64,000 bases of DNA, taken from assembly GCA_043228905.1 (NCBI GenBank), contig JBHGNT010000017.1:13516001-13580000 (forward strand), in the 5' to 3' direction. The notes beneath the pieces were generated by a model. The model had not been told where the DNA came from. It saw only the letters and a program-made list of their open reading frames with translations, and made no database searches. Within the stretch, counting starts at the first letter, position 1. The number at the start of each line of letters is the position of its first letter. Shown here in pieces: positions 29,790 through 54,706 of this stretch. Position numbers and translations under genes: made by a program. Source of the stretch: Azolla caroliniana. Its lineage: Eukaryota; Plantae; Polypodiophyta.

Positions 29790-31535
29790 GTTAAGATGGG
29801 GTGGGCTGAGAGAACAAGAAAAAGAAAACTATATGCATTTATTCTTTTATGTATTCCCCCTTTGTCTCTCCCATCTTTGTCAAAATTCGGATGTCCTCGA
29901 GATTATCTCTACAACAGGTTGTTAATGTAGGGGTTGTTAATGTGGAAGACGGATATTGAGTGTAGGGAAATCAAAAAACAATTCTTCTAGATATTCAACC
30001 ACATATTGTTTTTACTTGATAATGCGTCGGTAAATGTTTTTCCATACATTTATGGATCAAGTCCCTATATCATCACTTCTGAAAAATGATGGTACTTATG
30101 GGAGAGGATCATGTAATTTGATTAAGGTTCATTCCTTAGGAATGGTCATAATTTTGCTCATTTGAGCCACAACTTTATATGATGTGCACCAAGTTCCTAC
30201 TTGCATTTGTTATTTTTGATTAAACACCATTTTTGTTTCCTAATTGTACGCTTAGTTGCTATCTGCTTGATCCTCACCCACCGAGCAGTAGTAAGTACAT
30301 GTCGGGAGTTGAAGAATTTAAAGATTCTGTTGAAAACTTAATATGAATTGTTAATGAGGCAATAATGGACATTAAAGGGCCCACACTTCCTTGTTATAGG
30401 TTTAGAATCAATTTGATTGTTTGAGTCAAATTGGTGTTCATGAGTAGAAATGAACTCACAAGTCAAATAAACAAACTACCTACCTATTGCCATGAACCTA
30501 GTTATTGTGGTGTGGGTGGTGGTATCTTGGCACAAGGTGTAAAACAACAAATTTGGCCTCTTTTCTACCTTCCCACAAGGTTGTAGTGAGGCAAAGCTTG
30601 ACGCCTAGTTGTGTGAAGAGTTCCGTTCCTTCATTACTATTCAACTCCCCACATTATCCACAATTTTCCCTACCTACACATCGACCTTGACAAATGACAT
30701 CTTTTGATACGGAATGGTAGAAAATGTTTTAGTCTTGTTTCTCAGCACTCTCCCTTCAACTTGGTTCGTAAGGTCCAATCCCCAATCCTATGCACTAACC
30801 ACTTATGTCTTCCAATGAATGGGCACTAACCACTGTGTTCACCATGCATCTGTAGCACACTACTAGTGAGTAGGTTGGGTGAATCTCATCCTCGTGTCTC
30901 GGATTTAAGCATATATTGGCAAGCCGTGTACGACTCTACGAACTGCGACAGATCTTCGTATATCCGCAGCCACTCACTGTTAGTATGGTTTTTCCTTGAG
31001 GTTTAGGAACATCGCCCGAGTGGCTCTCTGTGCCCTGCCCATGGGCTATTATTGTATTGTGGAATTGTGTCCGAAGATTGGGTCTTTCTTTCGTCGGCAT
31101 TACCACTTCACATCTTCTTCTCTTGTGTGCCTCCTCTTTATAGTTTTAAGGGCTCCATCTTGTTGCAGTCATAATCAATGAGAGCTATATGTATAACAGT
31201 ATATATACATAATACATATATAAGACCTGACTGTGGTGAATCAGGTAGATCTGACTCATGCCATGTATATCGCCCACTTCAGAGCTTTCCCCCCGCATGT
31301 AAGGTTTCCACCTGCTTCAATTTCTATCCATGGCTCTCTGCACCCCCCCCCCTCCCCCACCCCTTGATCCTTTCCTCATCGCTCTGGTTTGATCCGATCA
31401 GAGAATCCATGGACACTTTTCCCATGTAAGAACCTTTAGCCTTCACATCATGCAAGATTGATTCTTGTTTGTTAGAAAAAGACTGGATTGCGGAAAAAAG
31501 GAAAGAAGCTGAATATCAAACTATATAATTCCGGC

Positions 31536-34370
31536 ATGGCTTCCACCATCATGGAATCCTTGTTTCAACGAACCTTAGAAGACCTTGTGAAAGGGTTAAG
31601 AGTGCAAATGATCGGAGAATCCAGGTACATTTCTAATCATCTCGATGAGATCAGGAAAGAGATCAAATCCACAGATTCAAACACAAAAGCGGTTGCATTG
31701 CAAAAGCTTACATACATAAACATGCTTCAAGGTGTGGATATGGAATGGGCAGCTTTTCACGTCATAGAAGTGATGAGTATGACTAAATTTGAGCATAAGA
31801 AGATAGGGTATTTGGCTGCATCGCAGAGCTTCCATGAAGGAATAGACGTGATTTTGCTCGCCACGAATCAGATTCGTAAGGATCTTTGTAGCACCAATGA
31901 GTATGAGGCAGGTCTCGCATTAGAATGTTTGTCATGTATAGCTACCCATGACTTGGCACAAGAACTCACCCCAGAGGTTTTCACATTGCTGGCTAACGGA
32001 CGACTTTATGTCCGCAAGAGAGCCACACTAGTCATCTTCAAGCTTTTTGCAAAGTATCCCGAGGCCGTCCGAATTGCTTGTAAACGATTAGTGGAAAAAC
32101 TAGAAGATTCTGACCCTACGGTTGTGTGTGCTGCTGTTTGTGTTTTTTGTGAAATGGCTTTGAAAGACCCTCGGTCTTGTATACCTTTGGCTCCAGAATT
32201 TTACAAGCTTCTTGTTGATTCAAAGCACAATTGGCTTACCATCAAAATCGTGAAGATCTTCGGTGTTTTGACTCCTCTCGAGCCAAGGCTTGTTAAGAAG
32301 ATTGCCGAGCCTCTTTGTGAGCTTATGAAAAAAACAAATGCCAAATCATTGCTTTTAGAATGCATCCGAACTATAATTTCAGGGCTCCCTGATCATGCCG
32401 AAGCTATGAAGCTCGCAGTCGAGAAATTGAAAGGATTACTATTGGAAGAGAATGATCCAAACTTGATTTATTTAGGCCTTCAGACACTGGCAGCCCTGAT
32501 GGTGTCTCATCCTTGGGCTGTTGCAGAGAATAAGTCCATCATTGTAAGAAGCTTAAATGATGAAGATCAGAACATTCAGATGGCTTCGCTTCAATTAATA
32601 CTAGGAATGGTCACAGACACTAATATTATAGAGACTGTTCAAATTCTAATGCAGTATGCAGAGAAGTCACATCCATTGTTTTGCAATGAGCTTATCGGTG
32701 CCATACTTGCAACTTGTAGCAGAGGCCTATATGAGCTTGTTCCTGATTTTGGCTGGTATGTTTCTATACTCGGTAACATTGCTCGGATACCTGGCTCTAC
32801 ACATGGAAAAGAGATAGAGAGACAGTTTGTGGATATCGGCATGAGAGTTAAAGAGGTGAGGGCGGATTTGCTTGCAGTTTCAAGATGCATATTACTTGAC
32901 CCAACTTTGCTAGAGCATGATTCTTTGCACAGAGTTCTATCTGCTGTTGCTTGGATTGCAGGCGAGTATGTTGGATACTCTGCAAATCCTGTTGAGCTCA
33001 TTGAAGCTTTGCTTCAGCCGCGAACTAAGCTTTTGCCATCATCAGTCCGTGCTGTCTATCTCCAATCAGTTCTGAAGGTATTTGTCCATTTCACATTCTT
33101 GTATTTGAGAAACATCCTTGAAAGAAGTGAAATGACGATTATGACAGAAAGTCTCGCATCGACTTTCTCTGATAAAGGAAGCGATCCAGATAACATTAAG
33201 CCAGAGGAAAAAATCGATGTGGCTCTTAAACAGGAAGAAAATGAGGCATTGCCTATGAACAGGTGTATGAATGGCGAACCTGTGGTGAATGACTCTCTTG
33301 AAAGGGTATTGGAGCTCCTAGATATGAATGTAGGCCCACTTGCATTGTGTGATGATGATGTGGAAGTACAAGAACGAGCTTGTAATCTTCAGGGTGTCAC
33401 GAAGGCATTGAGAGAAAAGATGATATTTTCAGAGGTGAAGGGAAATTCTTTGAACAGAGAGGACTCAATTCGGAAGGCATATATGCTGTTTGATTTTCTT
33501 AAGGAGGTTTTCTCTCAGGATTTTGGTCCTGTATCAGTGTTTGCTCAGAGCCGAGTCCCTCTACCTGATGGCTTGGTTCTAGAAGAGAATTTGAATAGCT
33601 TAGATGTGTTGTTTAAAGATGAGGAGAAACTCAGGGAAAGCTGGAAAGATTGGAGCATTGGTGAACATTCACAACTAATACAAGAATGGGAATTGGCTTC
33701 TATATCTGGTGTGGGAAAACGTGAGGTTTCTTCCAAGAATGAAGAGTCATCGGCCCTCTTAACTGAGCACCGCCAGCGTCATGGAACCTTTTATTTACCA
33801 GTTGAGAAGGAATCCTCAAGAGGTAATGAATATCCTCCGCCTCAAATGGTGAATTCAGACGACATTCCTGATACATCAGGAACAGCATCTGAGGGTATAA
33901 TGAAGCTAGCAGATCAGCCATCTCTCTGGTCGAAAACTCGTCGAACTACACCTCGTCCTGTAATCATTAGGCTTGATGATTCCGAGGAAGCTTTAATGAT
34001 CCCGTCAATTAAACCAAAGAAAGACTTGAAGGATGATGTTATATCTAGTGCCATCAGGGATGTTCTTGTGGGAGAAAAAAGCAAGAAATTATCAGAAGGT
34101 GAAGGTAAAGTAATGAGCATGGTTTCACATCATCATAGAAGAAGTCATCGTAAAGGTCAACGAAGTGATAAGAATGGATCAGCTCAAGATTTTATCGGTG
34201 CCGAGAACATTGTAGAAGAAGGGATGAAGAAGAAAAGTAGACGAAAATCAATTTCCTCTTCTGTGACGTCTGAAGGGGAGAACAGTAGAAAGGGAAGAAC
34301 ACGACAAAGGGCTAAAAGTCCGGTTAGTTTGCCACCTCAAGCAGCTGTCATTCCGGATTTTCTCTTATAG
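31536..34370 (+). CDS. AP3D: AP-3 complex subunit delta (delta-adaptin), intronless CDS, 944 aa
   Basis: MESLFQRTLEDLVKGLR, KKIGYLAASQSF, PLAPEFYKLL..NWLTIKIVKIFG.LTPLEPRL, WIAGEY, DVEVQERA, PVSVFAQSRVPLPDGL.L, C-terminal IPDFLL. First ATG at 31536. Confidence 0.95.
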   Translation: MASTIMESLFQRTLEDLVKGLRVQMIGESRYISNHLDEIRKEIKSTDSNTKAVALQKLTYINMLQGVDMEWAAFHVIEVMSMTKFEHKKIGYLAASQSFHEGIDVILLATNQIRKDLCSTNEYEAGLALECLSCIATHDLAQELTPEVFTLLANGRLYVRKRATLVIFKLFAKYPEAVRIACKRLVEKLEDSDPTVVCAAVCVFCEMALKDPRSCIPLAPEFYKLLVDSKHNWLTIKIVKIFGVLTPLEPRLVKKIAEPLCELMKKTNAKSLLLECIRTIISGLPDHAEAMKLAVEKLKGLLLEENDPNLIYLGLQTLAALMVSHPWAVAENKSIIVRSLNDEDQNIQMASLQLILGMVTDTNIIETVQILMQYAEKSHPLFCNELIGAILATCSRGLYELVPDFGWYVSILGNIARIPGSTHGKEIERQFVDIGMRVKEVRADLLAVSRCILLDPTLLEHDSLHRVLSAVAWIAGEYVGYSANPVELIEALLQPRTKLLPSSVRAVYLQSVLKVFVHFTFLYLRNILERSEMTIMTESLASTFSDKGSDPDNIKPEEKIDVALKQEENEALPMNRCMNGEPVVNDSLERVLELLDMNVGPLALCDDDVEVQERACNLQGVTKALREKMIFSEVKGNSLNREDSIRKAYMLFDFLKEVFSQDFGPVSVFAQSRVPLPDGLVLEENLNSLDVLFKDEEKLRESWKDWSIGEHSQLIQEWELASISGVGKREVSSKNEESSALLTEHRQRHGTFYLPVEKESSRGNEYPPPQMVNSDDIPDTSGTASEGIMKLADQPSLWSKTRRTTPRPVIIRLDDSEEALMIPSIKPKKDLKDDVISSAIRDVLVGEKSKKLSEGEGKVMSMVSHHHRRSHRKGQRSDKNGSAQDFIGAENIVEEGMKKKSRRKSISSSVTSEGENSRKGRTRQRAKSPVSLPPQAAVIPDFLL

Positions 34371-36677: not shown

Positions 36678-38792
36678 TCAATATTTGTTCTTGCTATCAC
36701 TATAATCCCCAAAAGAGTCATCCTCAAATGCATTTCCAAATGAATCGTTCTCAAATGGAAAAGATTCCTTCTCGGATTTCTTTCCAAAACCAGAGCTCCC
36801 AAAATCACTACTGTCAAAAGTGTCTTTGCTTGAAGATTGGAAGGAGTCGTCGTTATCAAAACTATCTTTGGAAGAGTCCGTGCCAAGGCTACCAGAAGAA
36901 CCTCCAGACCCAAATGCAGATGCATTGCTAAATGAAGAGCTATACGATGAATCACTGCCACCGCCACCAAATGAAGAGCCAGACCTTGACTCTCCATATC
37001 CCATGCTTCCTCCACCATAGCCACCAAAAGATCGTCCAGAAGGAGCTTTCTCGATCGCAAAATCCACCCGAACATTTCTACCATTCAGAGTCTATATAAA
37101 AACTCATTTGAGTAAGACAAATGACCATTAACCATAGGACACATTCATGAAATTTACTTTATTTCCCCAAGTATTTAAGTTGTTTTTTTCCTGATCTCCC
37201 CACATGCACAATTATATGGCCATTCATCTTTCTTCAAGTGAGTAATAACAAAAACCTAAGGGCATTTAAGGAAATGCAGAAAACCCCCGGGAATTTCTGA
37301 GATTTCACCCAGATTACTTTAGCACTAATACAATAAAGAGAAAAAAATCCCAATCCCCTTAACTTTTGAGCTATTTACCAGAAAATCCCTTACAGTTTCC
37401 AGAAACTATAAGGGGTATTCTCATAAGGAGTCAAAACATTAGGAGGTACTTTGGTATTTTTCCCACTATAATAGAAGAGTCTTGGGCCTCTACTTGTCCA
37501 TCCATGCTCTTCTTGGCCGATTCAGCATCATCTGTAGACATAAAACTGACAAACCCAAAGCCTTTAGACCGCCCCGTCTCTCTATCTTGCACCACTTTGA
37601 CTGTATCGTTCCAAAAAGATGGTGTACTTACGTTAGTTGAGCAAACACAAACAAAACAAATACACAGGTTGAAATTACCAGAAAACATGCATACCTTCAG
37701 ATATTTGACCGTATGATGAGAAGGCATCTCTCAGGGAATGCTCATCAGTAGACCAGGAGAGACCTGAATTTCAAAACAAAATTAAATTCAACAAATCTCT
37801 CACTCTGTCACATATATATTCTAATTGTAAGTCGTATATTAAGGTCAAGATCCTGCAGTTCCTGCCAGACAGCCTTATCTGAACTACCCCCTTTCGCATT
37901 CTCATATTCCAGTTTTGGCTTTTACCGATACTAATATTATAACTTGGCTCATTTCTTCTTTCTATTTATTTCATTTATTTTCACTTCTTCTCTGTATTTC
38001 CTTTCCTTTCTTCTCTCTCATGTGACCTTTTGAGCTTTTAGCAAACATTGATACTACAATTCATTTAATGGCTTCTCTCTTTCATTCCATTTCCCTTTTA
38101 TTTCTTCAATCCACTTCATTTCATTGCCCTTGATTTCTCCTCTCTTTTGTTTGTTTCCTTTCATTCTTTCTCTCTTTCGTTCATTTTCTTTCATTCTTTA
38201 TTGCTATCATTCATTTCCCTTCATTCCTTTTCTATTTCATTTGTGTCCTTTCATTCCTTGTCTCTTTCTTTGGCTTCTTCACTCTTTTTTTCATTTCTTC
38301 TCTTTATTTATCTATATTTCTGTGGCTGATGCAGATTTTGCTGCTGCAAGATTCATCTTATCCAAGAAAATGCCACTGATCCCTCTTCCATATAACAGTC
38401 ACCATATTTGCATACCAATTTACTTGTATGTGTGTCTGTAAGAAAATGCCACTGAACCCCTCTTCAAAATGGTCGATATAATCGCATACCAATTTCCTTG
38501 TATGTATGTATGTAAGCATTTATGATTGTATGTATGGTAAACGCAGTCCCCCTGAAACAGTATGTATGTATGTATGTATGTATGTATGTATGCATTTATG
38601 GTTGTATGTATGGTAAACGGAGTCCTCCTGAAACAGAGAGAGGAACTAACCTCCAATGAAGAGTTTGTGGGAGACTCCCGAAGACATGGAGCGGCAGAGG
38701 AGGAGTTGGTGATGATGATGACACTGGTGGTGGTTCTGAAGGCGGCCAAGAAGGGAGCGCCAAAGGGTGTTGGTGGAGGACCTGAAGGCCAT
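36678..38792 (-). CDS. Mitochondrial glycine-rich RNA-binding protein (single RRM; GR-RBP3/5, ORRM3/4-like), 243 aa. Exons 38792-38651, 37763-37695, 37600-37494, 37091-36678
   Basis: Transit-peptide-like MAFRSSTNTLWRSLLGRL..RSMSS, RNP2 KLFIGGL, RNP1 KGFGFVSF, LNGRNVRVDFA, Gly/Ser-rich then acidic tail. GT-AG introns give an open frame. Confidence 0.9.
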
Positions 38793-40379: not shown

Positions 40380-40731
40380 AGAGCGCTTCAATTGGTAAGG
40401 TTGCTCAATGGAGACCAGGAGGTCATCTAGTGAATTAAGAGATATGTATGAAGTATGTAATAGAGAGGTGAGAAAATTGTGTTTCGAACCCAAGATGTAG
40501 TGCTTGTAGTGTGACAACTTACTAGTAAGGTAAGCTAATTACAATAAAAAAAGACCGAGAGGGAGGGAGAGAGATGCCCAGACCGAGAAGTCATGGGTTC
40601 AACCCCTAATTCCATAGAGTGACATGTATTGAATTAAGAGATATGTATGAAGTAATAGAGAGGTGAGAAAATTGGGTTTCAACCCAAGAACTAGTGCTTA
40701 TCGTGTAACAACTTACCACTAGTGTAAGCTA

Positions 40732-40783
<52 letters not shown>

Positions 40784-40866
40784 GAGAGGTGAGAAAATTG
40801 GGTTTCAGCCCAAGACCTAGTGTTTGTTGTGTAACAACTTACCACTAGGGTAAGCTACTTACAATA
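40380..40866. repeat. Three copies of an ~85-bp tRNA-like (SINE-head-like) unit separated by microsatellites
   Basis: Units at about 40460-40545, 40655-40735 and 40782-40866. Minus strand reads TAGCTTAC..AGTGGTAAG (A-box-like)...GGGTTCGAAAC/GGGTTGAAACCC (B-box-like). Confidence 0.6.
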
Positions 40867-40884
40867 TAAGAGAGAGAGAGAGAG

Positions 40885-42600
40885 GTCACCCACTAACTAT
40901 ATGGGTAGTGGAACATGTTCAATGGCAAGTGGCAATTTAGAATGCCAACTCCGTTTTAAGATTTGCCACCATCCATGATCAGAGTTATGTATTTTCCATT
41001 ATTTTTCAGTCGTCGATGATAGTCATCCAAGAGACTCAATGGTGCAATGATACAGAATATTAGTAGTCACTTGTAAACCGGTGTCTAACCCCCTAAACAC
41101 CAATCAATCCACAATTGTTCTTTTTTTTGTAAAGGTAAAGAACCTTGGATCAATGCAATATGTTGTAGTTATTGCCCGATAAACCCATAATTAGGCGATA
41201 TGAGTAATAATTGTTCCGCGTCAACAAACTCCAAATTCTTTGAGATGGAACCTCAACTATATCTCTCACCTCATTGACCCCGAAACGATTAAACTAATAG
41301 CTTAATCTCTCCTTTCGAAGCCAACATAATATAATTGAGAAGACACAAGTAAATCTTTTTGCAAGGAATTACAATGCTCTCTACTAGATGTTGGTTTCTA
41401 TATACATAACAAGAGTGCTTCTTGCCATGAGATAACCAAGTGTTGAAAACATGAAGAGGCAAGAATCTTAAGTGAAATACATTCGTTCAGTAATTGTCAC
41501 CATGAAGCGTTAATTGTTGTCCTCCCATGTGTTAAACCCTTGTTCACAATGAAGTATTGGACAATAGATATCCATGGTTGTGAGTCTGAACACATGTCTT
41601 GCAATAATGAAAATCCACAAATCATCGTATGCATCCAGATAAATGGGAGATAAGTCCAATACTCCAGCTCCGCCCAAGCGCTTAGGGGTTGCTAGATGAT
41701 TCCATGTAACCCATGCAATTCCCATCTTATCCCTCTTCCTCCACAACAAATATCAAAGAGGTTGCAAAACAGATTGCAAAGCCTTCTTTGTCCATGGCAA
41801 CAATGACATGTAATATAATATCATGGGTTCCATAATACAATGTACAACCTTCAAGCATACATGAAATTGCCAAGATTGTTACTTCCAATACATGAACTTA
41901 TCCCTTAAGTTACTAGACATCTATTCAATCAATTAACCATTTGTAACATTCATCCCCAATGGATATCCCAAGTGTCGAAAAATGGAGCCTTTCCTAACCA
42001 CAAATCCTTGCCATCCTAAACATTCCAAATTCCTTTCAGTACATGAGATGAGACTAGAATTCCTCCAATTAATATATAATGCGAAAGCCAATGCAAATTT
42101 GTTTCATACAAGCATCGCCCTCTCAAGATTCTCTCGTGAGGCTTGTAGAAACATGAAAGAATCATTTATTGAAGCTTGTGCTACTAGTTGCCCTCCAGAT
42201 GGAAGGCGTAAACCCACAATGTCACCATTTTTTGCAAGCCTTGATAACATCACTAACCAGGGATGAGTAACAATAGCAAACAACAATAGGCTAAATGGGT
42301 ATCATTGACAAAAAGATCTTGTGACGGTAATATCTTATGTAATTCCCCCATTAAGCATGACTCAACACACTACATCTTGTCTTGATAAAAATATGAGGCG
42401 AGACAAACATGGTCCAAAGCCCATTGTATGCATTAACCCAGAAACAAAGGACCAATTAACATGATCATAACCTTTCTCCAAATCTAACTGCACCATAGTC
42501 AATTCTTGATGACTGTGTTGTGCATTATCCATGAACATTCAACACATTATGCAATATATTCCTGTAAATAATTATGTTGAGTATCTATGTTAGGTGGAAT
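40885..42600 (-). mobile_element. Decayed L1-clade LINE RT fragment
   Basis: QLDLEKGYDHVNW, LLFAIVTHP, FRHLGYPLG, AWVTWNHLATPKRLGGAGVLD. Confidence 0.8.
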
Positions 42601-42628: not shown

Positions 42629-42683
<55 letters not shown>

Positions 42684-43642
42684 TTATATTATCGTCTTCG
42701 GAGGTCAAATATGACCTATGAGACCAAAAATATTACATTTCACGTGATACGTGTGAAAGTGAGTAGTGACTCTCGATGTTCAAGAACTTTACCAATGAAT
42801 GTTGCAATTGAGAGTGCACATTATGGTTGTGAGAGGAATTCATGCAAGGATTGGGCTCGGTCGAAGAGATGTGGAAAGCATGGTCGAATATGATCAAAGG
42901 TAGAGCATTGTATCAAAGTGTGATACTCAGACTCGCAAACTTGTTTAGGTCAAAGTGTGCATAGTTGGCTCATCACTTGTGCCCCAATGTTGTCTCACAT
43001 CACAATGCATGTGAGCTAAGTCGGATGGAAGCAATGGTTCGAATGGTAGATAACGGTATGGGGTCTAACATGTATCGATGTGTACGATTTCCCCGTTCCG
43101 CAAAGAATATGGTTTTGTGGTTAGGTGCAACATGTGTAGTATAATGTGTGAAGCGTGAGCCTCCACATTTGTCCCATGTCATGATACATTGGTGTTGCAA
43201 AAATGCCTCATTTACAAAGGAATCTAATGATGCATCATGAAGCAAGTGTCTCGCATCCCATCTACCAAACCATTTTTCTATATCTTGCATCCAATCAGAA
43301 CACAAAATTTTGCTTTTATGTGTCTTTTTGCTTGCTTCCCATGCAATTCTAGGAAGTCGATGTGAGGGACTTTTTTGAACCTTAAGCATGTATTCAACAA
43401 CCCTTTCCATGGCCATGATCTCAATGGGAAGTGATCCCGTCTCAAGGAGGACTAACCCTAAAACCTACAACAGGAGGAGGAGGAGGGTGTAGGGCGTTTG
43501 TTTCTTAACTTGTAGAAACTTTTTAAGAAAATGTTTTTGGACATTTTCAAATTCTTTCCACATAGATTTAGGGATGCTACCGCCCCATACTTCCACCCCA
43601 TAGAGAAGAACCGGTGTCACCAAAGTGTCGAAAAGATATTTC

Positions 43643-46484
43643 TGTCAGAACCAAGGATAAAAGATAGAGTGATGGAAGAAGGATAGAGAAGAATGGATGT
43701 ATAAGATAGAGAAAGAAAGAGAATGGATACAAGATATGTAATGAGAGCTAAAGACTGGTGTTGATTCGAATTGATTTGAGAATACATGTATGCGCTTATT
43801 TATAGGTTCCTATAGAATAGCTTAGAGATTTCTAGAATGTTCTAGAATGTTCTAGACCTAGAATGCTCTAGGACATTCTAGAACATTCTAGAATAATCTA
43901 GAGTTTTTACAATAATCAATGTAATACAAGAAGTAGCTTTTATTGTTTCATATAACAATAAGTTATCTTAATGGTTGAGGTTTTCAAGTATGAATTACAA
44001 GGTTCGAGGTTCAAGTCCGGGTGACGCCATAATGGTCATGTGTTCATGACACTATCCCTCCTTCGAGAACGCCGAGTGGAAGTCGGTGTTAACATTGTTG
44101 GGCCGGGCTTGTTTGGATAGTGACGATGGAAGTCGTTGACCAGAGCTTCAGCATTACAAATGTTATCGATGGGTTCCCAAGTGCGATCACTCGGAGGATA
44201 ACCAAGCCAATCAACTAGATAATAAAGCTTATTGCACACAATCTTAGAATCGAGAATAGCAGCTACCTCGTATTCGGGGCCGTCCACAAGTTGTACAGAA
44301 GGCGATGGTGGCACGACACGATCAGGAATTAAAGAGGTGTGGCAAGGTTCCAAAAGAGAGCTATGAAAGACAGGGTGAAGCCGCATATGTGCAGGAAGGT
44401 TAAGACGAAATGTTGCATCATTAATCTGCGCCGTGATGACAAAAGGACCTAAGCGTTGATAGTCAAGCTTAGCACACGGTCGGGTAGTCTTGATGTGACG
44501 ACGAAGCAACCATACACGGTCACCAACCTTAAACGGAGACTTAAGACGATGTCGATCGGCATTGGTCTTATGGTGTGCTTGCGCTTTCTGAAGATGTGAC
44601 GATAACTCAAACTGGATTTGTTGTAGTCGGTGGAGGTGATGCGCCGCACTAGGGTTTCGTGACACCTCGGGAAGATCCAGTATACACCATCGAGGGTGGT
44701 TGCCGGTGTAGGCAAAGAAAGGTGTAACTTTGGTAGAAGAGTGGACCGTGTTGTTGTATGCAAACTCAGCAAGATGTAAAATTTTACTCCAATCATCTTG
44801 TTGATAACTAATGAAACATCGAAGATATTGCTCGAGCGTTTGATTTGTGCGCTCTATTTGTCCGTCAGTTTGTGGATGATAAGCCGAAGAGAGTTTGCAA
44901 GAGATTTTGAGGCCTGCCCATAGGTGCTTCCAAAAGTGTGAGATAAATTGAGGACCTCGATCGCTAATAATATCATTCGGGAGACCATGATGGCAACACT
45001 TCACGCATAATGAGATCTGCAGTTTCTTCACTATTGATGGTCTTTACACATGGTACAAAATGTGCCATCTTGGTGAACCGATCCACTACTGTTAAAATAG
45101 TATCAAAGCCTTTGGAAGGTGGCAGATCCATAATGAAATCCATAGAAATAGACTGCCATGGCTTGTTGGGAGGGGGTAATGGTTGTAGTAAGCCATAAGG
45201 GTGATGTCGGGGTATTTTGGCGCGACAGCAGGTGTCACAAGTGCGAACATAATCTTTGACAAATTTTTGTGATCACTATAAATGATAATCTGATGAGGTG
45301 ATCCTTCTAGAAAATGACGCCATTGCTCGAATGAGTCGACCACAGCTAGTAACTCCTTGTCATGCACCTCATAGTTTATCTCCGAAACAGTAAACTTTCT
45401 CGAGTGAAACGCGACTGGATGTATCTGCCCGTCCTCGCCTGGTTGCGATAGGATACTCCCCAATGCAAAGTCTGATGCATCCGCCTCAATAGTAAATGGC
45501 TTTTCAGGATCAATATGTGCTAGGATGGGTGTTGATGTGAATGCCTCTTTTAGCTGCGTAAAAGCCTTGTCCGCTTTGATACTCCAAAAAAATGCTTGAT
45601 TTTTCTTGGTGAGTTGAGTAAGGGGCAACACAATGCTTGAATAATTATGTATGAATTTGCGATAGAAGTTCGCAAATCCGAGGAAACACTGGACATCCCG
45701 AACTGAGCATGGGGGTTTCCATTCCAATATTGTTTGGACTTTTGCCGGGTCCATGAAAACACCCTGGGATGAAATAGTGTATCCCAAAAATTCGACTTGT
45801 TTGCAATCAAAACTGCATTTCTCAAGTTTGGCGTAAAGACCATACTTCCTTAGGCATTCAAGTACTTGCCGCACATGTATATCATGCTCCCCCTGTGTTT
45901 TAGAGTAAATCAATAGATCATCTAGGTAGATGATTAGAAAAATATCCAAGAAATCCCGGAAGATGTCATTTGCCATATGTTGGAATACGGCAGGTGCATT
46001 TGTGAGCCCGAAAGGCATGACTGTATACTCGAAATGACCATACCGAGTACAAAATGATGTTTTCCACTCATCTCCTGGCCGAATTCGAACAAGATTATAT
46101 GCACCCCTTAGATCAATTTTGGTAAAATGCTTTGCCCCACCAATGCGTTCTAAGAGATTGGAGATTAAAGGTAAAGCATACCTATTCCTTATGGTGACTT
46201 TATTTAAGCCTCGATAGTCCACGACCAAACGAAGGGAGCCGTCCTTTTCCTTCACAAAAAAGATAGGAGCACCAGCTGGAGACTTTGAATGTCGAATAAA
46301 CCCATGTGCAAGATTTTCCTCGATGTATTCTCGAAGAACCTCAAGCTCAATGGGTGATAAATTGTAAATCGGACCCCACGGAGGCTCTTTTCCTGGTTGG
46401 AGATCAATAGGACAGTCGTACGGCCGATGCTTTGGAAGAACACTAGCTTTGACTTTGTCGAAAACATCAGCATAGTCTTGATAT
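43643..46484 (-). mobile_element. Ty3/gypsy chromovirus (Tcn1-like), 5'-deleted: RT-RH-IN-chromodomain + 3' LTR
   Basis: LRLVVDYRGLN, PFGLTNAPAVFQ, YLDDLL, EADASD, YHPQTDGQ.ER, chromodomain EYEVAAILDS..YLVDWLGY..TWEP. LTR 43643-44051 (TGTCA...TGACA), PPT AAGGAGGGATAG. Confidence 0.93.
43797..43903 (-). promoter_or_regulatory. LTR promoter: TATA box plus upstream heat-shock-element (nGAAn) array
   Basis: TATAAATA on the minus strand at 43797-43804; TTCtaGAAtgTTCtaGAAtgTTCtaGA at 43830-43856; TTCtaGAAcaTTCtaGAA at 43876-43893. Confidence 0.75.
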
Positions 46485-47331
46485 CTCCAAGATTGCATGT
46501 GTTCTCAAATGCATAGTATGCTCGCTTACCCGCCTCTAAGCGGCGTGGAGCACATTCATTCCATCTATGATTTGAAGGAACTTGAAGGCCAAGATATTTG
46601 AAGCTTTCCGCACATTCAAGTGGCTCATTGTTGTACATAATGCATAATTTATCTCTTTTTTGGCTCTTCACAAGCATAATCTTTGTTTTAGAGCTATTGA
46701 CACTTAATTTAGTATGCATGCAAATTTTTTCCAAATTATGCCTTCATAAGCTTTTGTGCATCTCCTAAAGTATTTGCAAAAAGCACTATATCATCTGCAT
46801 ATAGCAAAAGCATAATCACAACATTCCCAATGACAACTCTTCAACACATTCTTCCTTTGCAAACTTGGATACCATTTCTTCCAATTCATCAATGCATAGA
46901 CCAAATAGTGTTGGTGAGAGTGGGCATCCTTGCTTAACACCAATAATGCTTTTGAAAAAATCTGAAAGTTTATCTCTCATGTGCACACAACATATAACCT
47001 TCTCATAAATTTGGGAAATTGCAAGCATATATTCACTTGGCACCTCAAGTTCTTCCATTCGCCTCCAAAGATGCTCACGAGGTACGATATCAAAATCTTT
47101 CTTGAAGTCTACAAAGCAACAATATAAACCTTTACCTCTAAGGCGACTTTCCTCCATTAATACTCGAAGGGTGACAAGGTGATCAATGGTGCTATGGTAT
47201 TTTCGAAAGCTAGCTTGTCCATAAGCTCTCTTACCATTTTTTTCAGCCCATACACTTATCTTTGATTCCATTATACATCCAAACAGTTTTGCCATTAATG
47301 AGCCAACCATGATGGTTCAATAGTTGTTTAC

Positions 47332-50300
47332 TGTTAAGAATTAGGTAATTAAGGATGGGTTAATTAGTACCTAATTATGTGATTAGTTGATAAGCGGAAG
47401 ATTAAGTGATATGTGTGTGTATATGTGTGAGAGGAAGAGAGATAGAGAGAGAGATACACTTATGAAGAACAAAAGATGGGGGATGAGTAACTATATTAAA
47501 TTAGCATTATCATCATCAAATACAAAAATACCCACAATGAGGTATATATACATCTCATGTGCAAGAGTGCACATGTGTGAGTGGATATATAGGTACTAAG
47601 GTGTAAGTCCTATATTAAATGTACTTAGGAGTGGAGGATCTAGAATATCCCACTTAAGTACAAGGTCCTATTTAAGGTGTTATAGTCAACACTCCTAACT
47701 AGATTCTATCTAGGTAACTACGAAGTTACATGGTTGACTAACTAACTAAACTAAGTTGAGCTTGATCTCTCAACACGCCCCCTCAAGCTCAAGTGTGAGG
47801 CGTCTGACATCCGCTTTGGCTTTTGGCGTTGTCCGGCTTTCGATGTCGGCTTCTGTGCGGCTTCCGTCCGGCCTTCAGCTTTCTTTGCTGTGACAATCTC
47901 GGGTCCTCCCCCTCAAGCCGGTGAAGAAGGCTTGTAGTGTGTGGGTGAAGGCCGACTACTTCCACCCATCGTGGATTACGAGTCACTTCGGTGGAGCTCT
48001 TGGGCTCTTGTTCGGCCGCCACCTTCATCGCGAAGGCATAGTGATAGGCCATGTACTGTTGTAGCCGTGCTGAGTGACGGGGTTCTCAGCTCTAGATGAG
48101 CGTCGAAGTTTTTCGCTCGCCGATGTGAGCGCCTTCTTTGCTCTGGGTGTCTGCATGATGGTTACACCGAACTCACTGTCTAGTGAGGGAGCAGACACAT
48201 CCGAATCACTGTCGTCGGGGTGGTCGACTTCGTATTCGAGCATCTTACCTTTGCCTTTGTCCAAGTTCGTACTTGGCTGCGACGTGCTTGGGTTGCGTGG
48301 GGGCTCTTCTAGCCCACTAGGCCTTGCCGTAATCGGACATTCTTCGAACATTTGTTCGAAGTGATGCCCATCTTCTACCTCTTGTTCGGCAGATTCCGGG
48401 TCGAGCGTAGTCAGAGTTGAAGTTGTCTCTAGTGCGTACCAGGATGCGGACTCGTCGAAGACTACGTCTCGACTTACCCGAACCACTCGGGTAGAAGGGT
48501 TGTAGCAATTGTATGCCTTCTTCTCAGACAAGTATCCTATGAGGATACATTCTTTCGACTTCGCGTCGGGCTTCTGTCGTTGTTCGTTTGTGATGCGTAC
48601 ATTCGCAATGCTTCTGAACACCTTGAGGTGCGACAGGATAGGCTTCCTTCTGACCAAGAGCTCATATGGAGTTAGCTCATGCACTCCATTAGTGGTGCAC
48701 CGGTTCATGAGATAGACGGCCGTGGATGCCGCTTCGGCCCAATAGAAGTTTGGCATGTGCTTCTCATGCACCATGGTGTGTGCTACCTCGAATATTTGCC
48801 GATTCTTCCTTTCGGCGACTCCATTTTGTTGGGGTGTGTGTCGGCATGAGAATTCTCTCCGAATGCCTTCACTTTGGAGGTAGGAGGTGAATTCGTCGGA
48901 GAAGTACTCCTTGCCTCCATCTGATCGTAGGCATCAAATGTGCCGAATGGTTTCTTTTTCGACTTGCCCCTTGAGCTTTTGGAAGTGGGAGAACACTTCG
49001 CTCTTCTTCTTCATTGGGTAGATCCATGTGTAGCGCAAGTAGTCGTCGATGAAGGTTACGTAGTATTGGCATCTGCCAATCGTCGGCGTTTGAGCCGATC
49101 CCCATACATTCGAGTGTATGACGTCGAGGAGGCCTTTGCTTGCGGAGCTCTCCTTCGGGAATGGGAGTCGATGTTGTTTGCCGAGTTGACACACTTCGCA
49201 TACTCGGTCGACTTGTTTAGACTCGAATGCCGGAAGTCCGAGGACGACTCCCTTGGTTTGCATCGCTCTAAGCCGTTGGAGGTTTATGTGGCCGATTCTC
49301 TTGTGCCACAACTCGATGCTTGTCTCAGTTTTGAGACCTTTGGCATACATTGCCGATTTCATCTCGTTCGAATCAAGGATGAACATTCGGCCGTCTCTCC
49401 GCCCCTTACCTATGAGTCGGCCATCTTTCTCAATGAAACAACCTTCATTGTTGAAGCGGACTTGCATGCCTTGCTCCACGATTTGGCCGACCGAGACCAA
49501 TTCTTCGTTATTGTGGGCACGTGCAAGACATTCTTGATGCAAGTTTTCTCGCCTTCTTTCCCGAATGGGACATTGCCAATGTGCCGAATGGGGTGCGTGA
49601 TGTCATCTCCCGTCTCTATGAAGCCGAGTCAATCCGGTGTATGCAAGTCATTGAACCACTCCTTGTGGGATGTCATGTGATGTGAGACGTCGGAATCGAC
49701 GAACCACACGTCTTCCGAATTGGAGGTGCTTGCGGAGTTAGAGGCCACCATAGAGTTCGCTCTATGCCTCATTACGAACATTCCGCCACGATCGCCGTAG
49801 TTGGAATTCGTGGCATAATTTGTAAACATTTCACTACGATCGTCGTAGTTGGAATTCGATGCGTGATTCGTGAACATTCCGCTATGATTGTCGTAGTTGG
49901 AGTTCGATGCGTAGTTTGTGAGTTGTCGACTTGTTGAAGCCGACTCACTTCTTTTTTTCCGACACTCCACCTCGTAGTGGCCGATTTTGCCGCACTATTT
50001 GCAAGTTGCGGGCCTCGTTTGTTGAGCATGTTCGGCATGGAAGCTCCCCCTTCTTCTGAAGGTTCCTCGATGGCTTCTGTGAAGGTTTGAATTCCCTTCG
50101 TGTGATGGGCCGAATTGGCCTCTTCTACTGCCGTGACCTCCTCCTCGGCCACCGTCCGAATTCGAGAAGAACATTTGTCCTTCCGACGTCTTGCTTTTGG
50201 TTTGGACGTGGTTCTCTTCGACCAATGGCATTGATTGGAGGTCGAAAAATGAAGGAGGGTTTTTTCTCGCCAAGATTGCCGTCCGTAATGGATCAAATCA

Positions 50301-51385
50301 TTGTGTGAGGCCACCCAAGCATACTTGAACCATCTCGTCTTCGTCGGCATTTATTTTGATGGAGCCAAGTGAGTCGCAAATGCTCTTGATCTTGGCGGTG
50401 TAGTCCGACATGGACATGTCTTTTTGCCGAATGTTGTTCAACTCTTGTCGGAGTTGAAGCTTTCGAGCGGTCGTGTTGGTGGCGAACATTTTCTTTAAGT
50501 TCGCCCACGCTTCTTTAGGTGTCTTGGCGTCTCAAATGTGGCTAAGCATGTGGTTGTGGACACATGTTGCTAAGCAATACATGACTCGACTCACCGCTTG
50601 CTCCCATGTTGCGTAGTCGGCGTTCTTTGAGTCGGGTCGATTTTCTTGAGTACCGTTGATGTAGCTCCAATACCCTTGGCCGACGGGGTATTAGGTCATC
50701 TTGTACTCCCAAGATGAATAATTGCTCCGATCTAGCTTTTCACTAGGGAGCAAGCTACCCATTTGTGTGTTCATGTTGATTGTGTCTTCTCTTCTTTTGC
50801 TTTTCTTCCTTCGATCGCGTACATGTGCTACATAGCGGCACTATGGTGGCCAATAGCTAGATTTTTTCGTCAGCGTCTCGAACACACAATTACGGAGTCG
50901 GGTGGGCTTAGTGGATTTTCTAAACCACACGCTCTAATACCATGTTAAGAATTAGGTAATTAAGGATGGGTTAATTAGTACTTAATTATGTGATTAGTTG
51001 ATAAGCAGAAGATTAAGTGATATGTGTGTGTATATGTGTGAGAGGAAGAGAGATAGAGAGAGAGATACACTTATGAAGAACACAAGCTGGGGGATGAGTA
51101 ACTATATTAAATTAGCATTATCATCATCAAATACAAAAATACCCACAATGAGGTATATATACATCTCATGTGCAAGAGTGCACATGTGTGAGTGGAATAT
51201 AGGTACTAAGGTGTAAGTCCTATATTAAATGTACTTAGGAGTGGAGGATCTAGAATATCCCACTTAAGTACAAGGTCCTATTTAAGGCATTATAGTCAAC
51301 ACTTCTAACTAGATTCTATCTAGGTAACTACGTAGTTACATGGTTGACTAACTAACTAAACTAAGTTGAGCTTGATCTCTCAACA
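47332..51385 (-). mobile_element. Ty1/copia element E (gag-PR-IN retained, RT/RH deleted)
   Basis: LTRs 47332-47775 and 50943-51385, PBS 50931-50942, PPT 47776-47787, TSD TTTAC/TTTAT. WFVDS (PR), LWHKRIGH/CEVC and FIDDY (IN). Coding stops at RNPRWVEV. Confidence 0.95.
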
Positions 51386-52364
51386 TTTATATTATTTACA
51401 TCTCCACCTTTATGGAAAGGTTTGATCCAATTTGTAGTCCAATCGTACCACATACCATGTTGCAATGCATCATTAAACATATCGCTTATCCATACATGTG
51501 CTTCTTTTCCTGTCCATTTTAGCATTTCAACCTTTATACATTGAAGATCACTTGCCTTTCGAGAGGCCAATTTCTTAATTCCTATGCATATATCTTCAAT
51601 TGTAAAGAAGGGAGACATATGTGAAAGAGAACCATAACACATCATCTTTCCGGCAAGAGATAACTCATATAAATTCTTACAATGCATAGACAAGTCGTGA
51701 ATAGTTAAGTCACCATAACTCTCAACACGTTTCCCCTTTAGATTTCCCCAAAATTTAGCACATGCATGTGCTTTCTCTTGCGTTTCGATAAATTGTTGAG
51801 TAACTTCCCATATTCTTCTCTTTCTTTTAATAAGCCTTTTATACACATGCAAATGCTTTTGGTAATTCTCTTTATCCTTAACTACATCCAAAACCATAAG
51901 GCACTTTCGAGCTTCACGACATTCTTTATCAAACCAGTTTTTCCTAAGTTTCTTGGTGCATTTCCAAGATGTGCAGTTGGTCGAAAAACATTTGTTTGTA
52001 CATGAGAGAATGACTTTCTTGAAAGCTTCCCATTTTCATTCTAGTGTGGCACTATGTTGTGTCTTGGTCATTTGTAACATATCCTCAACCATCTTGGAAT
52101 ACATGGGCACTTGCTTAAGGTTCATGCTCAAGTGCGGTTGTTTATTATCTTCAATAGCCTTCTCACAATCAAACCTATGCATACATTTGAGATCAATACA
52201 TAAACTTGGCCTACGATTGGATTCCGGTGTCCATTCACCAAGTGAGAATTTATGTATACAATCCAAAATACCTTCGGAAAGTAGCACATAGACAATCACA
52301 CTATTTCCGTTATGTTTTCTACATGTAAGAGAGAGAGAGAGATAGATAGATAGATAGATAGATA

Positions 52365-54272
52365 GATTATATTATCGTCTTCGGAGGTCAAATATGACCT
52401 ATGAGACCAAAAATATTACATTTCACGTGATATGTGTGAAAGTGAGTAGTGACTCTCGATGTTCAAGAACTTTACCAATGAATGTTGCAATCGAGAGTGC
52501 ACATTGTGGTTGTGAGAGGAATTCATGCAAAGATTGGGCTCGATCGAAGAGATGTGTAAAGCATGGTCGAATATGATCAAAGGCAGAGCATTGTATCAAA
52601 GTGTGATACTCAGACTCGCGAACTTGTTTAGGGCAAAGTGCGCATAACCGACCACTCTCATCACTTGTACCCCAACGCCCTGTTTCACATCGCAATGCAT
52701 GTGAGCTAAGTCGCATGGAAGCAATGGTTCGAATGGAAGATAACGGTATGGGCTCTAACATGTATGGATGTGTACGATTTCCCCGTTCCGCGAAGAATAT
52801 GGTTTTGTAGTTAGGTGCGACATGTGTAGTATAATGTGTGAAGCGTGAGCCTCCACATTTGTCCCATGTCATGATACATTGGCGTTGCAAAAATGCCTCA
52901 TTTACAGAGGAATCTAATGATGCATCATGAAGCAAGTGTCTCGCATCCCATCTACCAAACCATTTTTCTATATCTTGCATCCAACCGGAACACAAAATTT
53001 TGCTTTTATGCGTCTTTTGGATCTTTTTGCTTGCTTCCCACGCAATTCTAGGAAGTCGATGTGAGGGACTTTTTTGAACCTTAAGCATGTATTCAACAAC
53101 CCTTTCCATGGCCATGATCTCAATGGGAAGCGATCCCGTCTCAAGGAGGAGGAGGGGGTAGGGCGTTTGTTTCTTAACTTGTAGAAACTTGGTAAGAAAA
53201 TGCTTTTGGACATTTTCAAACTCTTTCCACATAGATTTAGGGATGCTACCGCCCCATACTTCCACCCCATAGAGAAGAACCGGTGTCACCAAAGTGTCGA
53301 AAAGATATTTCTTGAGGACCCAACACTTAATATCTCCAAGATTGCATGTGTTCTCAAATGCATAGTATGCTCGCTTGCCCGCCTCTAAGCGGCGTGTAGC
53401 ACATTCCTTCCATCTATGATTTGAAGGAACTTCAAGGCCAAGATATTTGAAGCTTTCCACACATTCAAGTGGCTCATTGTTGTACATAATGCATGGTTTA
53501 TCTCTTTTTTGGCTCTTCATAAGCATAATCTTTGTTTTAGAGCTATTGACACTTAATTTAGTATGCATGCAAAATTTTTCCAATGCCTTCATAAGCTTTT
53601 GTGCATCTCCTAAAGTATTTGCAAAAAGCACTACATCATCTGCATATAGCAAAAGCATAATCACAACATTCCCAATGACAATTTCTTCAACACATTCTTC
53701 CTTTACAAACTTGGTAACCATTTCTTCCAATTCATCAATGCATAGACCAAATAGTGTTGGTGAGAGTGGGCATCCTTGCTTAACACCAATAGTGCTTTTG
53801 AAAAAATCTGAAAGTTTATCTCTCATGCGCACACAACATATAACCTTCTCATAAATTCGGGAAATTGCAAGCATATATTCACTTGGCACCTCAAGTTCTT
53901 CCATTCGCCTCCAAAGATGCTCACGAGGTACCATATCAAAAGCTTTCTTGAAGTCTACAAAGAAACAATATAAACCTTTACCTCTAAGGCGACTTTCCTC
54001 CGTTAATACTCGAAGGGTGATAAGGTGATCAATGGTGCTATGGTGTTTCCGAAAGCCAGCTTGTCCATAAGCTCTCTTACCACTTTTTTCAGCCCATACA
54101 CTTATCTTTGATTCCATTATACATCCAAATAGTTTTGCCATTAATGAGCCAACCATGATGGTTCGATAGTTGTTTACATTATTTATATCTCCACCTTTAT
54201 GTAAAGGTTTGATCCAATTTGTAGTCCAATCGTACGGCATACCATGTTGCAATGCATCATTAAACATATCGC
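52365..54272 (-). mobile_element. RTEX-like LINE, 5'-truncated, with uninterrupted RT-CCHC reading frame
   Basis: ORF 52423-54270: NNYRTI, QAGFRK, FVDFKKAFD, GVKQGCPLSP, LLYADD, FKYLG, SSHALRCETGRW..CALC..ESEYH..C. Flanked by (GA)n/(GATA)n. Confidence 0.93.
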
Positions 54273-54393: not shown

Positions 54394-54706
54394 GGTGTTT
54401 TATATAAGTGAAAAGTACCAAGATACCCTTGGAAGTTCCAAATTTACTAAACTACCCCTATGTCCAAAAAAGTACACTTTATAAAGTAATTATACACTCA
54501 AATCTACAAGCCCTATTTACCAAAGATAGAAGAAATGGACCCGAACTAGCCCTATTTACCAAAGATTTGAGTGTATAATTACTTTATAAAGTGTAATTTT
54601 TTGGATATAGGGGTAGTTTGGTAAATTTGTCACTTCCAGGGGCATTCTGGTAAATAGATGAACTTCTAGGGGTATCTTGGTACTTTTCCCTTTATATAAA
54701 GGCACC
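54394..54706. mobile_element. Foldback/MITE-like element with ~110-150 bp imperfect inverted arms
   Basis: TATATAAGTGAAAAGTACCAAGATACCC...ACACTTTATAAAGTAATTATACACTCAAATCT is mirrored at 54563-54700; no coding capacity. Confidence 0.8.

What the first reader, a model, noticed from the sequence alone, without database searches (positions are those of the whole stretch)
43797..43903. Chromovirus LTR built around a long heat-shock-element array just upstream of its TATA box
Seen: a 10-bp-periodic run of alternating TTC/GAA units (5 perfect units at 43830-43852, 4 at 43876-43893, plus degenerate units) starts about 25 bp upstream of TATAAATA in the LTR's own orientation. Established: alternating nGAAn pentamers are the HSF binding site, and heat-activated copia elements such as Arabidopsis ONSEN use LTR HSEs. 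Inference: this Tcn1-like gypsy family is heat-inducible, a gypsy/chromodomain analogue of ONSEN in a probable non-seed plant, and its LTRs may spread heat responsiveness.
Basis: partly seen in the sequence, partly recalled or inferred. Interest (0 to 1): 0.8.

Follow-up and report, generated by a model that had tools for sequence, protein, structure and literature searches.

The report
Fern chromovirus clade with heat-shock promoters
A large, recently active group of fern jumping genes carries textbook heat-shock-factor motifs at a fixed spot just before its promoter, in thousands of copies, so heat likely switches these elements on, though this is untested.

Summary
Window 43643-44051 (minus) is the 3' LTR of a truncated chromovirus nested in a LINE, in a fern. 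Perfect nGAAn runs of 5 and 4 units end 25 bp before TATAAATA; 0 of 20,000 shuffles reach 5.

The TATA is very likely the real promoter: a 12-nt self-primer 32-33 nt after it pairs with the PBS, with compensatory changes (21 of 24 perfect).

The motif is not special to this family. In LTRs sampled without using the array, GAA/TTC/GAA sit at -38/-33/-28 from TATA in 43/42/44 of 58 promoters, across families about 50-97% identical in integrase; the window's family expanded this core. The genome has 5,872 perfect 4-unit sites against 54 for a control pattern, and 14 of 15 fetched lie in these LTRs. Host small heat-shock genes use the same word.

Heat induction is inferred, not shown; no RNA data were available. 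Spreading heat control to host genes is unsupported so far. Precedents: ONSEN and flatworm Ty3 elements; I found none for a plant gypsy. The scan noted HSE-laden mobile elements in other genomes, not this one.

The parts
43643..44051 (-). 3' LTR, 409 bp, TGT...ACA
   Evidence: Ends fixed by 5-bp target-site duplications in other copies and solo LTRs; 40 best genome hits 99-100% identical
43856..43903 (-). Distal HSE block: 10 pentamer positions, perfect 4-unit run at 43876-43893
43815..43852 (-). TATA-proximal HSE block: perfect 5-unit run at 43830-43852 (units at -48 to -28 from TATA), then degenerate units; contains the clade-wide core
43797..43804 (-). TATA box (TATAAATA)
   Evidence: conserved 32-33 nt before the self-primer
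43761..43772 (-). Predicted 5' end of the transcript: 12-nt self-primer complementary to the PBS of full-length copies
   Evidence: compensatory variants in three sequence types
44052..44064 (-). Polypurine tract
44036..45043 (-). Integrase C-terminal part with SH3 and chromodomain (about 44120-44272; aromatic cage Y/W/Y present); stop codon lies in the first bases of the LTR
45263..46484 (-). RT and RNase H; about 540 bp missing between RNase H and integrase; 5' LTR, gag and protease absent
42661..43642 (-). LINE 3' part into which the element inserted (continues at 46477-47331)
   Evidence: 91-96% match to the uninterrupted copy at 52344-54177
36678..38792 (-). Nearest host gene found downstream of the LTR promoter: RRM plus glycine/serine-rich protein, same strand, probable start codon about 5.0 kb from the predicted LTR start site
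   Evidence: exon structure read by eye

Best explanation
The array is a set of canonical heat-shock elements in the promoter of a fern chromovirus clade, and it likely lets the host's heat-shock factors switch on element transcription during heat or related stress. Shown: LTR anatomy, motif, conservation, fixed position relative to TATA, copy numbers, very young copies. Strongly inferred: transcription starts 32-33 nt after the TATA, because the self-primer must be the 5' end of the RNA. Inferred: HSF trimers bind the core at -38 to -21; the window's family gained extra sites by block duplication in U3; the lack of CG and CHG sites in the 100 bp before TATA would blunt methylation silencing; the chromodomain would steer new copies into heterochromatin. 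The window copy is a broken 3' LTR, so it could at most give read-out transcription or enhancer activity.
For: (1) Motif far beyond chance. (2) PBS-anchored sample: 21 of 24 anchorable 5' LTRs (30 fetched) pair perfectly over 12 nt, in three co-varying sequence types; 3 have one mismatch. (3) TATA-anchored promoters chosen without the array (58 of 75 anchorable): GAA -38 in 43, TTC -33 in 42, GAA -28 in 44, TTC -23 in 37; they form 19 clusters, most only 37-55% identical to the window promoter. (4) 12 of 16 clusters with a two-unit site share one 10-bp phase to TATA; 47 of 58 promoters do, while the rest of U3 and U5 varies widely in length. (5) Integrase tree: inside a 56-row clade, 36 of 43 scored rows not picked by the motif have 3 or more perfect units; 0 of 9 scored rows outside it do. 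(6) 356 of 474 family LTRs keep the core at exact spacing. (7) 5,872 four-unit sites against 54 control; 14 of 15 fetched are this clade's promoters. (8) 9 of 29 host HSP20 loci carry 3-4 unit HSEs with nearly the same word. (9) In Brassicaceae copia elements 4-unit perfect HREs went with up to 1000-fold induction (PMC5059998, passages); in flatworm Ty3 elements mutating HSEs abolished induction (PMC12801592, passages).
Against: No expression or binding data. Clusters share ancestry, and slippage of a 10-mer keeps a 10-bp phase without selection, so the phase simulation (0 of 1,000,000) overstates significance. Core columns are only modestly more conserved than spacers (0.73 against 0.59 among 19 representatives). 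One subclade has mostly degenerate units (L061, L070, L112). The 56-row clade has support 93/77, below the starred threshold, and several outgroup rows show no clear LTR. In the flatworm 2 of 6 HSE-bearing families were not induced. The moss chromovirus RLG1 is repressed by heat (PMC7466625, passages); its LTR was not examined. Lack of CG/CHG is not clade-wide: the commonest family has 4 CHG sites.
Confidence: 0.66

Rival explanations
1. HSFs bind the array, but the main output is not heat induction: it gives basal, developmental or other-stress (oxidative, drought, light) expression, or repression by class B HSFs.
For: A motif kept for a very long time across a whole clade fits a core promoter role. 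RLG1 is expressed unstressed and repressed by heat; RLG2 answers to ABA as well as heat. That class B HSFs repress, and that HSFs act in other stresses, is recalled knowledge.
Against: Perfect 4-unit elements beside a TATA predicted strong heat induction in the two tested systems. Host HSP20 promoters use the same word.
Confidence: 0.15
2. The array is a neutral or structural 10-bp tandem palindrome in U3, produced by slippage and template switching, and spread only because the elements amplified.
For: Array length varies by block duplication and deletion among copies (L043, L096, L101, L119). Slippage keeps the phase by itself. Spacer letters inside the core are also fairly conserved.
Against: The most abundant family has no tandem 10-mer array, only a compact 4-unit site, at the same distance from TATA. 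The core persists across integrases 50-70% identical while neighbouring sequence turns over. Other LTRs in the window have none.
Confidence: 0.1
3. The sites are real HSEs but nearly all copies are silenced in heterochromatin, so there is little induction in living plants today.
For: Intact aromatic cage. Copies are depleted from the distal 10 Mb of C1 (2 of 80, 21 expected; boundary chosen after seeing the data). 5 of 6 full-length copies examined have stops, frameshifts or deletions.
Against: LTR pairs differ at only 1-2 of 409 sites in 6 of 6 copies examined (picked for closeness to the window LTR), so transposition was recent. The window family has no CG or CHG in the 100 bp before TATA.
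Confidence: 0.09

Closest known systems
ONSEN/COPIA78 and other Brassicaceae heat-responsive copia families (PMC3907296, PMC5059998; passages read)
   Same: Perfect 4-unit nGAAn elements in the LTR; no CG/CHG around the element (true for the window family's 100 bp before TATA).
   Different: This is Ty3/gypsy with a chromodomain, in a fern. The site is shared across a deep clade and thousands of LTRs, not gained family by family. The whole LTR has 5 CG and 3 CHG. Induction is untested.
HSE-bearing Ty3 elements of Macrostomum lignano (Mag, CsRN1, Gmr1/Osvaldo; PMC12801592, abstract and passages)
   Same: Ty3/gypsy LTRs with canonical HSEs upstream of the start site.
   Different: Animal, non-chromovirus clades, 6 of 137 families with 4-20 copies each, independent gains, experimentally validated. 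Here one large plant clade, no experiment.
Tcn1 clade chromoviruses (SM-Tcn1, moss elements; PMC6317226, PMC2864245, PMC3350952; passages)
   Same: About 5.5-5.7 kb, two ORFs, about 410-bp LTRs, 5-bp TSD, class I chromodomain, predicted self-priming, non-seed plant host.
   Different: No HSE is mentioned in the passages read ('heat' occurs 0 times in PMC2864245). REXdb listed Tcn1 only in mosses and club-mosses. No named reference was in my tree.
Caenorhabditis Helitrons carrying most genomic HSEs (PMC6927752; abstract and section 6)
   Same: One transposon group supplies most strong HSEs of a genome.
   Different: DNA transposon with HSF-1 binding and gene rewiring shown. Here the share is estimated from 15 loci and rewiring is not shown.
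Cryptococcus TCN3 and TCN12 (PMC12810828, PMC9942834; passages)
   Same: Heat-mobilised fungal LTR elements with putative HSEs in the LTR.
   Different: TCN12 is described as copia-like with one imperfect step-type HSE; Hsf1 action untested. The fern sites are perfect and position-fixed.

Membership tests
Ty3/gypsy chromovirus | RT-RNase H-integrase order with C-terminal chromodomain, PPT, TG...CA LTRs, TSD | tested here: met
Tcn1 clade | Class I chromodomain with aromatic cage | tested here: met
   Y, W, Y align with CDY/CDYL chromodomains, E 2e-9; criterion from PMC3350952 and PMC6317226
Tcn1 clade | Self-priming: PBS complementary to the 5' end of its own RNA | tested here: met
   21 of 24 perfect 12-nt pairings with compensatory variants; sequence-level prediction only
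Tcn1 clade | Non-seed plant host | tested here: met
   Sec23 best named hits Adiantum 81-83%, Ceratopteris 79%, seed plants and bryophytes 60-64%
Tcn1 clade | Groups with named Tcn1 elements in an RT-RH-INT tree | not tested
   No named references were available; the homologues found were nearly all unnamed
Heat-activated (ONSEN-type) retrotransposon | Perfect 3-4 unit HSE upstream of the start site | tested here: met
Heat-activated (ONSEN-type) retrotransposon | HSF binds the LTR | not testable with these tools
   needs EMSA, DAP-seq or ChIP
Heat-activated (ONSEN-type) retrotransposon | Heat-induced transcript and extrachromosomal DNA | not testable with these tools
   no heat-treated RNA run was at hand
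Heat-activated (ONSEN-type) retrotransposon | LTR free of CG and CHG | tested here: inconclusive
   0 and 0 in the 100 bp before TATA, but 5 CG and 3 CHG in the whole LTR; 9 of 19 cluster representatives have none in that stretch
ONSEN/COPIA78 family itself | Ty1/copia domain order | tested here: not met
   gypsy order with chromodomain

The most novel reading that the evidence does not exclude
A whole Tcn1-like chromovirus radiation in ferns has run on a host HSF promoter since its origin, with the HSE held in helical phase to the TATA box. Its LTRs supply most of the strong heat-shock elements in the genome, about 100-fold over background, so one heat wave would fire thousands of promoters, titrate HSF and drive transposition bursts aimed at heterochromatin.
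Probability: 0.3. Interest if true: 0.78.

Novelty: new variant of a known kind. Interest (0 to 1): 0.56.

Why it matters
The validated HSE-driven retrotransposons I found in print are Brassicaceae copia elements and flatworm Ty3 families, where the trait was gained piecemeal and in few copies. A plant gypsy clade that keeps the site in a fixed position across deep divergence and thousands of copies would show heat responsiveness as a stable ancestral strategy. It would extend it to ferns, pair it with heterochromatin targeting, and raise the question of how the host heat response copes with a large excess of transposon-borne HSF sites. One heat-shock RNA-seq experiment tests it.

Tried and rejected
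Sequencing runs: no RNA holder listed on record; 6 runs listed, all contigs. Four were laid: they hold pieces of related elements, carry no treatment information and cannot show level or start; not used for or against. Viral contigs: no relative. Integrase homologue search gave almost only unnamed proteins, so no clade naming. LTR promoters against 30 HSP20 loci (1.5 kb each side): no blastn hit, so no sign that these host HSEs came from the element. The six-unit pattern search (100 sites, 0 control) selects on the motif and was not used as a conservation test. Dropped rows: 17 of 75 promoters lacked the TATA-primer anchor and one (L114) was anchored on the wrong TATA; 6 of 30 PBS loci had no anchor; 17 of 90 loci were left out of the tree; three of the seven in-clade negatives (L057-L059) are one tandem-duplicated place whose last LTR has a 4-unit run. 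A paper search for HSE-TATA helical phasing found nothing relevant; that idea rests on recall. RNA folding of the array was not done. No supplements were read; those of PMC6317226 and PMC2864245 may hold Tcn1 LTRs that bear on how far the HSE extends.

Full report
Observation. The finding lies in a 409-bp LTR at 43643-44051, minus strand. Perfect alternating GAA/TTC runs are at 43830-43852 (5 units) and 43876-43893 (4 units). With degenerate units they form two phased blocks, offset by 1 bp. The proximal run ends 25 bases before TATAAATA (43804-43797). In 20,000 shuffles of the LTR none reached 5 units and 3 reached 4. The rest of the window has two 3-unit runs, and eight other repeat-end stretches have none of 2 units.

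The element. Upstream are a PPT, an integrase with SH3 and chromodomain, RNase H and RT. The chromodomain keeps the three cage aromatics. This copy lacks the 5' LTR, gag and protease, has lost about 540 bp between RNase H and integrase, and sits inside a LINE whose uninterrupted copy is at 52344-54177. The host is a fern: the neighbouring Sec23 gene is 79-83% identical to Adiantum and Ceratopteris proteins and 60-64% to seed plants and bryophytes. The genome is 523 Mb. The family is young: the 40 best hits are 99-100% identical, and 28 of the 30 fetched keep both runs intact. Six full-length copies are 5.45-5.70 kb, with LTR pairs differing at 1-2 sites and 5-bp TSDs (exact in 5 of 6); 1 of 6 keeps both long frames. 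These were picked for closeness, so they lean young.

The TATA is very likely the working promoter. Full-length copies have, 2 nt after the 5' LTR, a 12-mer complementary to the sequence 32 nt after the first T of the TATA. In 30 loci fetched by a PBS pattern, 24 could be anchored: 21 pair perfectly, in three sequence types whose differences are matched on both sides, and 3 have one mismatch. Self-priming is what Neumann et al. predict for Tcn1 elements (PMC6317226, passages). That the primer is the first bases of the RNA, as in Tf1, is recalled. This places the predicted start near 43772, with the HSE core about 55-80 nt upstream.

The HSE is clade-wide. I sampled LTRs by PPT (1,495 sites, 13 control), by PBS (2,578 sites, 34 control) and by integrase similarity in metagenome contigs, none using the array. 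Of 75 promoters 58 could be anchored on TATA plus primer. GAA at -38, TTC at -33, GAA at -28 and TTC at -23 occur in 43, 42, 44 and 37 of them. They fall in 19 clusters, most 37-55% identical to the window promoter. The commonest family has only a compact 4-unit site; the window family and its sisters have longer arrays made by block duplication. Twelve of 16 clusters with a two-unit site keep one 10-bp phase to TATA. Shared ancestry and 10-mer slippage weaken this figure, but the rest of the LTR changes length freely. On an integrase tree, 36 of 43 scored rows in a 56-row clade (support 93/77; five motif-picked rows and the window excluded, seven without visible LTR) have 3 or more perfect units, against 0 of 9 outside, several of which show no clear LTR. 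In the window's family 356 of 474 LTRs keep a perfect 3-unit core at exact spacing.

Genome scale. There are 5,872 perfect 4-unit sites against 54 for the reversed pattern; long arrays can count more than once. Of the first 15 on C1, 13 match the clade anchor, one more is visibly the same promoter, and one is not. As a positive control, 9 of 29 host HSP20 loci have 3-4 unit HSEs with nearly the same word, farther from their TATA boxes where one is seen. These loci show no similarity to the LTR promoters.

Mechanism. Most likely (0.66) host HSF trimers bind the core and induce element RNA under heat, which then self-primes and integrates under chromodomain guidance. Anatomy and conservation are shown; binding, induction and targeting are inferred. 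Calibration from print: 4-unit perfect elements went with up to 1000-fold induction in Brassicaceae copia families (PMC5059998, passages). HSFA2 binds the ONSEN LTR, which lacks CG and CHG (PMC3907296, passages). Four of six HSE-bearing flatworm families were induced, and HSE mutation abolished it in the one tested (PMC12801592, passages). Against: moss RLG1, a chromovirus, is repressed by heat, while gypsy RLG2 is induced (PMC7466625, passages). Rivals are HSF use for other outputs (0.15), a neutral repeat (0.10) and silenced HSEs (0.09).

Effects on host genes. Not shown. PPT-marked copies avoid the distal 10 Mb of C1 (2 of 80, 21 expected; boundary chosen after the fact), where four HSP20 hits lie. 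The window LTR faces an RRM gene on the same strand about 5 kb away, across LINE debris; any effect is speculation.

Novelty. HSE-driven retrotransposons are known, and gypsy examples exist in an animal. Searches returned no report of HSEs in a plant chromovirus or a fern retrotransposon; the library lacks most subscription journals and I read no supplements. Transposons as the main source of HSEs is known for Caenorhabditis Helitrons (PMC6927752, abstract and section 6). Earlier scan notes list HSE-laden elements in other genomes but nothing on this sequence. Verdict: new variant of a known kind, interest 0.56. The deep, position-fixed conservation and the scale are the notable parts; function awaits one experiment.

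Noticed in passing
window 43761-43772 and PBS of L031-L036, L084-L113: Self-primer and PBS co-vary across three sequence types: direct comparative support for Tf1-type self-priming in a plant chromovirus (PMC2864245 found no priming site for SM-Tcn1).
   Followed up: yes
window 42661-54272: Nested cluster: a LINE interrupted by the chromovirus and by a copia element with 98% identical LTRs (47332-51385), followed by a second copy of the same LINE.
   Followed up: partly
window 46477-46484: The 5' truncation joins element and LINE at a short shared stretch, with about 18 bp of LINE lost: likely a microhomology-mediated deletion.
   Followed up: partly
G000 C9:17.89-18.26 Mb (L174-L193): Cluster of at least 16 HSP20 matches, several with 3-4 unit HSEs.
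   Followed up: partly
L164 (G000 C1:1725538): A 4-unit HSE of a different word type, without this clade's promoter; similar words recur in the list and may mark a second HSE-bearing repeat.
   Followed up: no
L057-L059 (G000 C1:3016851-3017572): Chromodomain-PPT-LTR start segment repeated in tandem three times at 354-bp spacing.
   Followed up: no
L054-type LTRs: In the commonest family the stretch just before the self-primer forms an inverted repeat with it, resembling a second copy of the PBS inside U3.
   Followed up: no
window 21662-23599 and 31476-34370: Long single-frame host genes: Sec23 and an adaptin large subunit.
   Followed up: partly
window 40424-40885: Three copies of a roughly 90-120 bp repeat with microsatellite flanks, possibly a SINE.
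   Followed up: no
window 54416-54652: 90-nt inverted repeat, 90% complementary, 57 nt apart; MITE-like.
   Followed up: no
L037-L038 (G000 C2:11099350-11113500): A family copy spanning 13.5 kb because another gypsy element (RT 45% identical) is nested in it.
   Followed up: no
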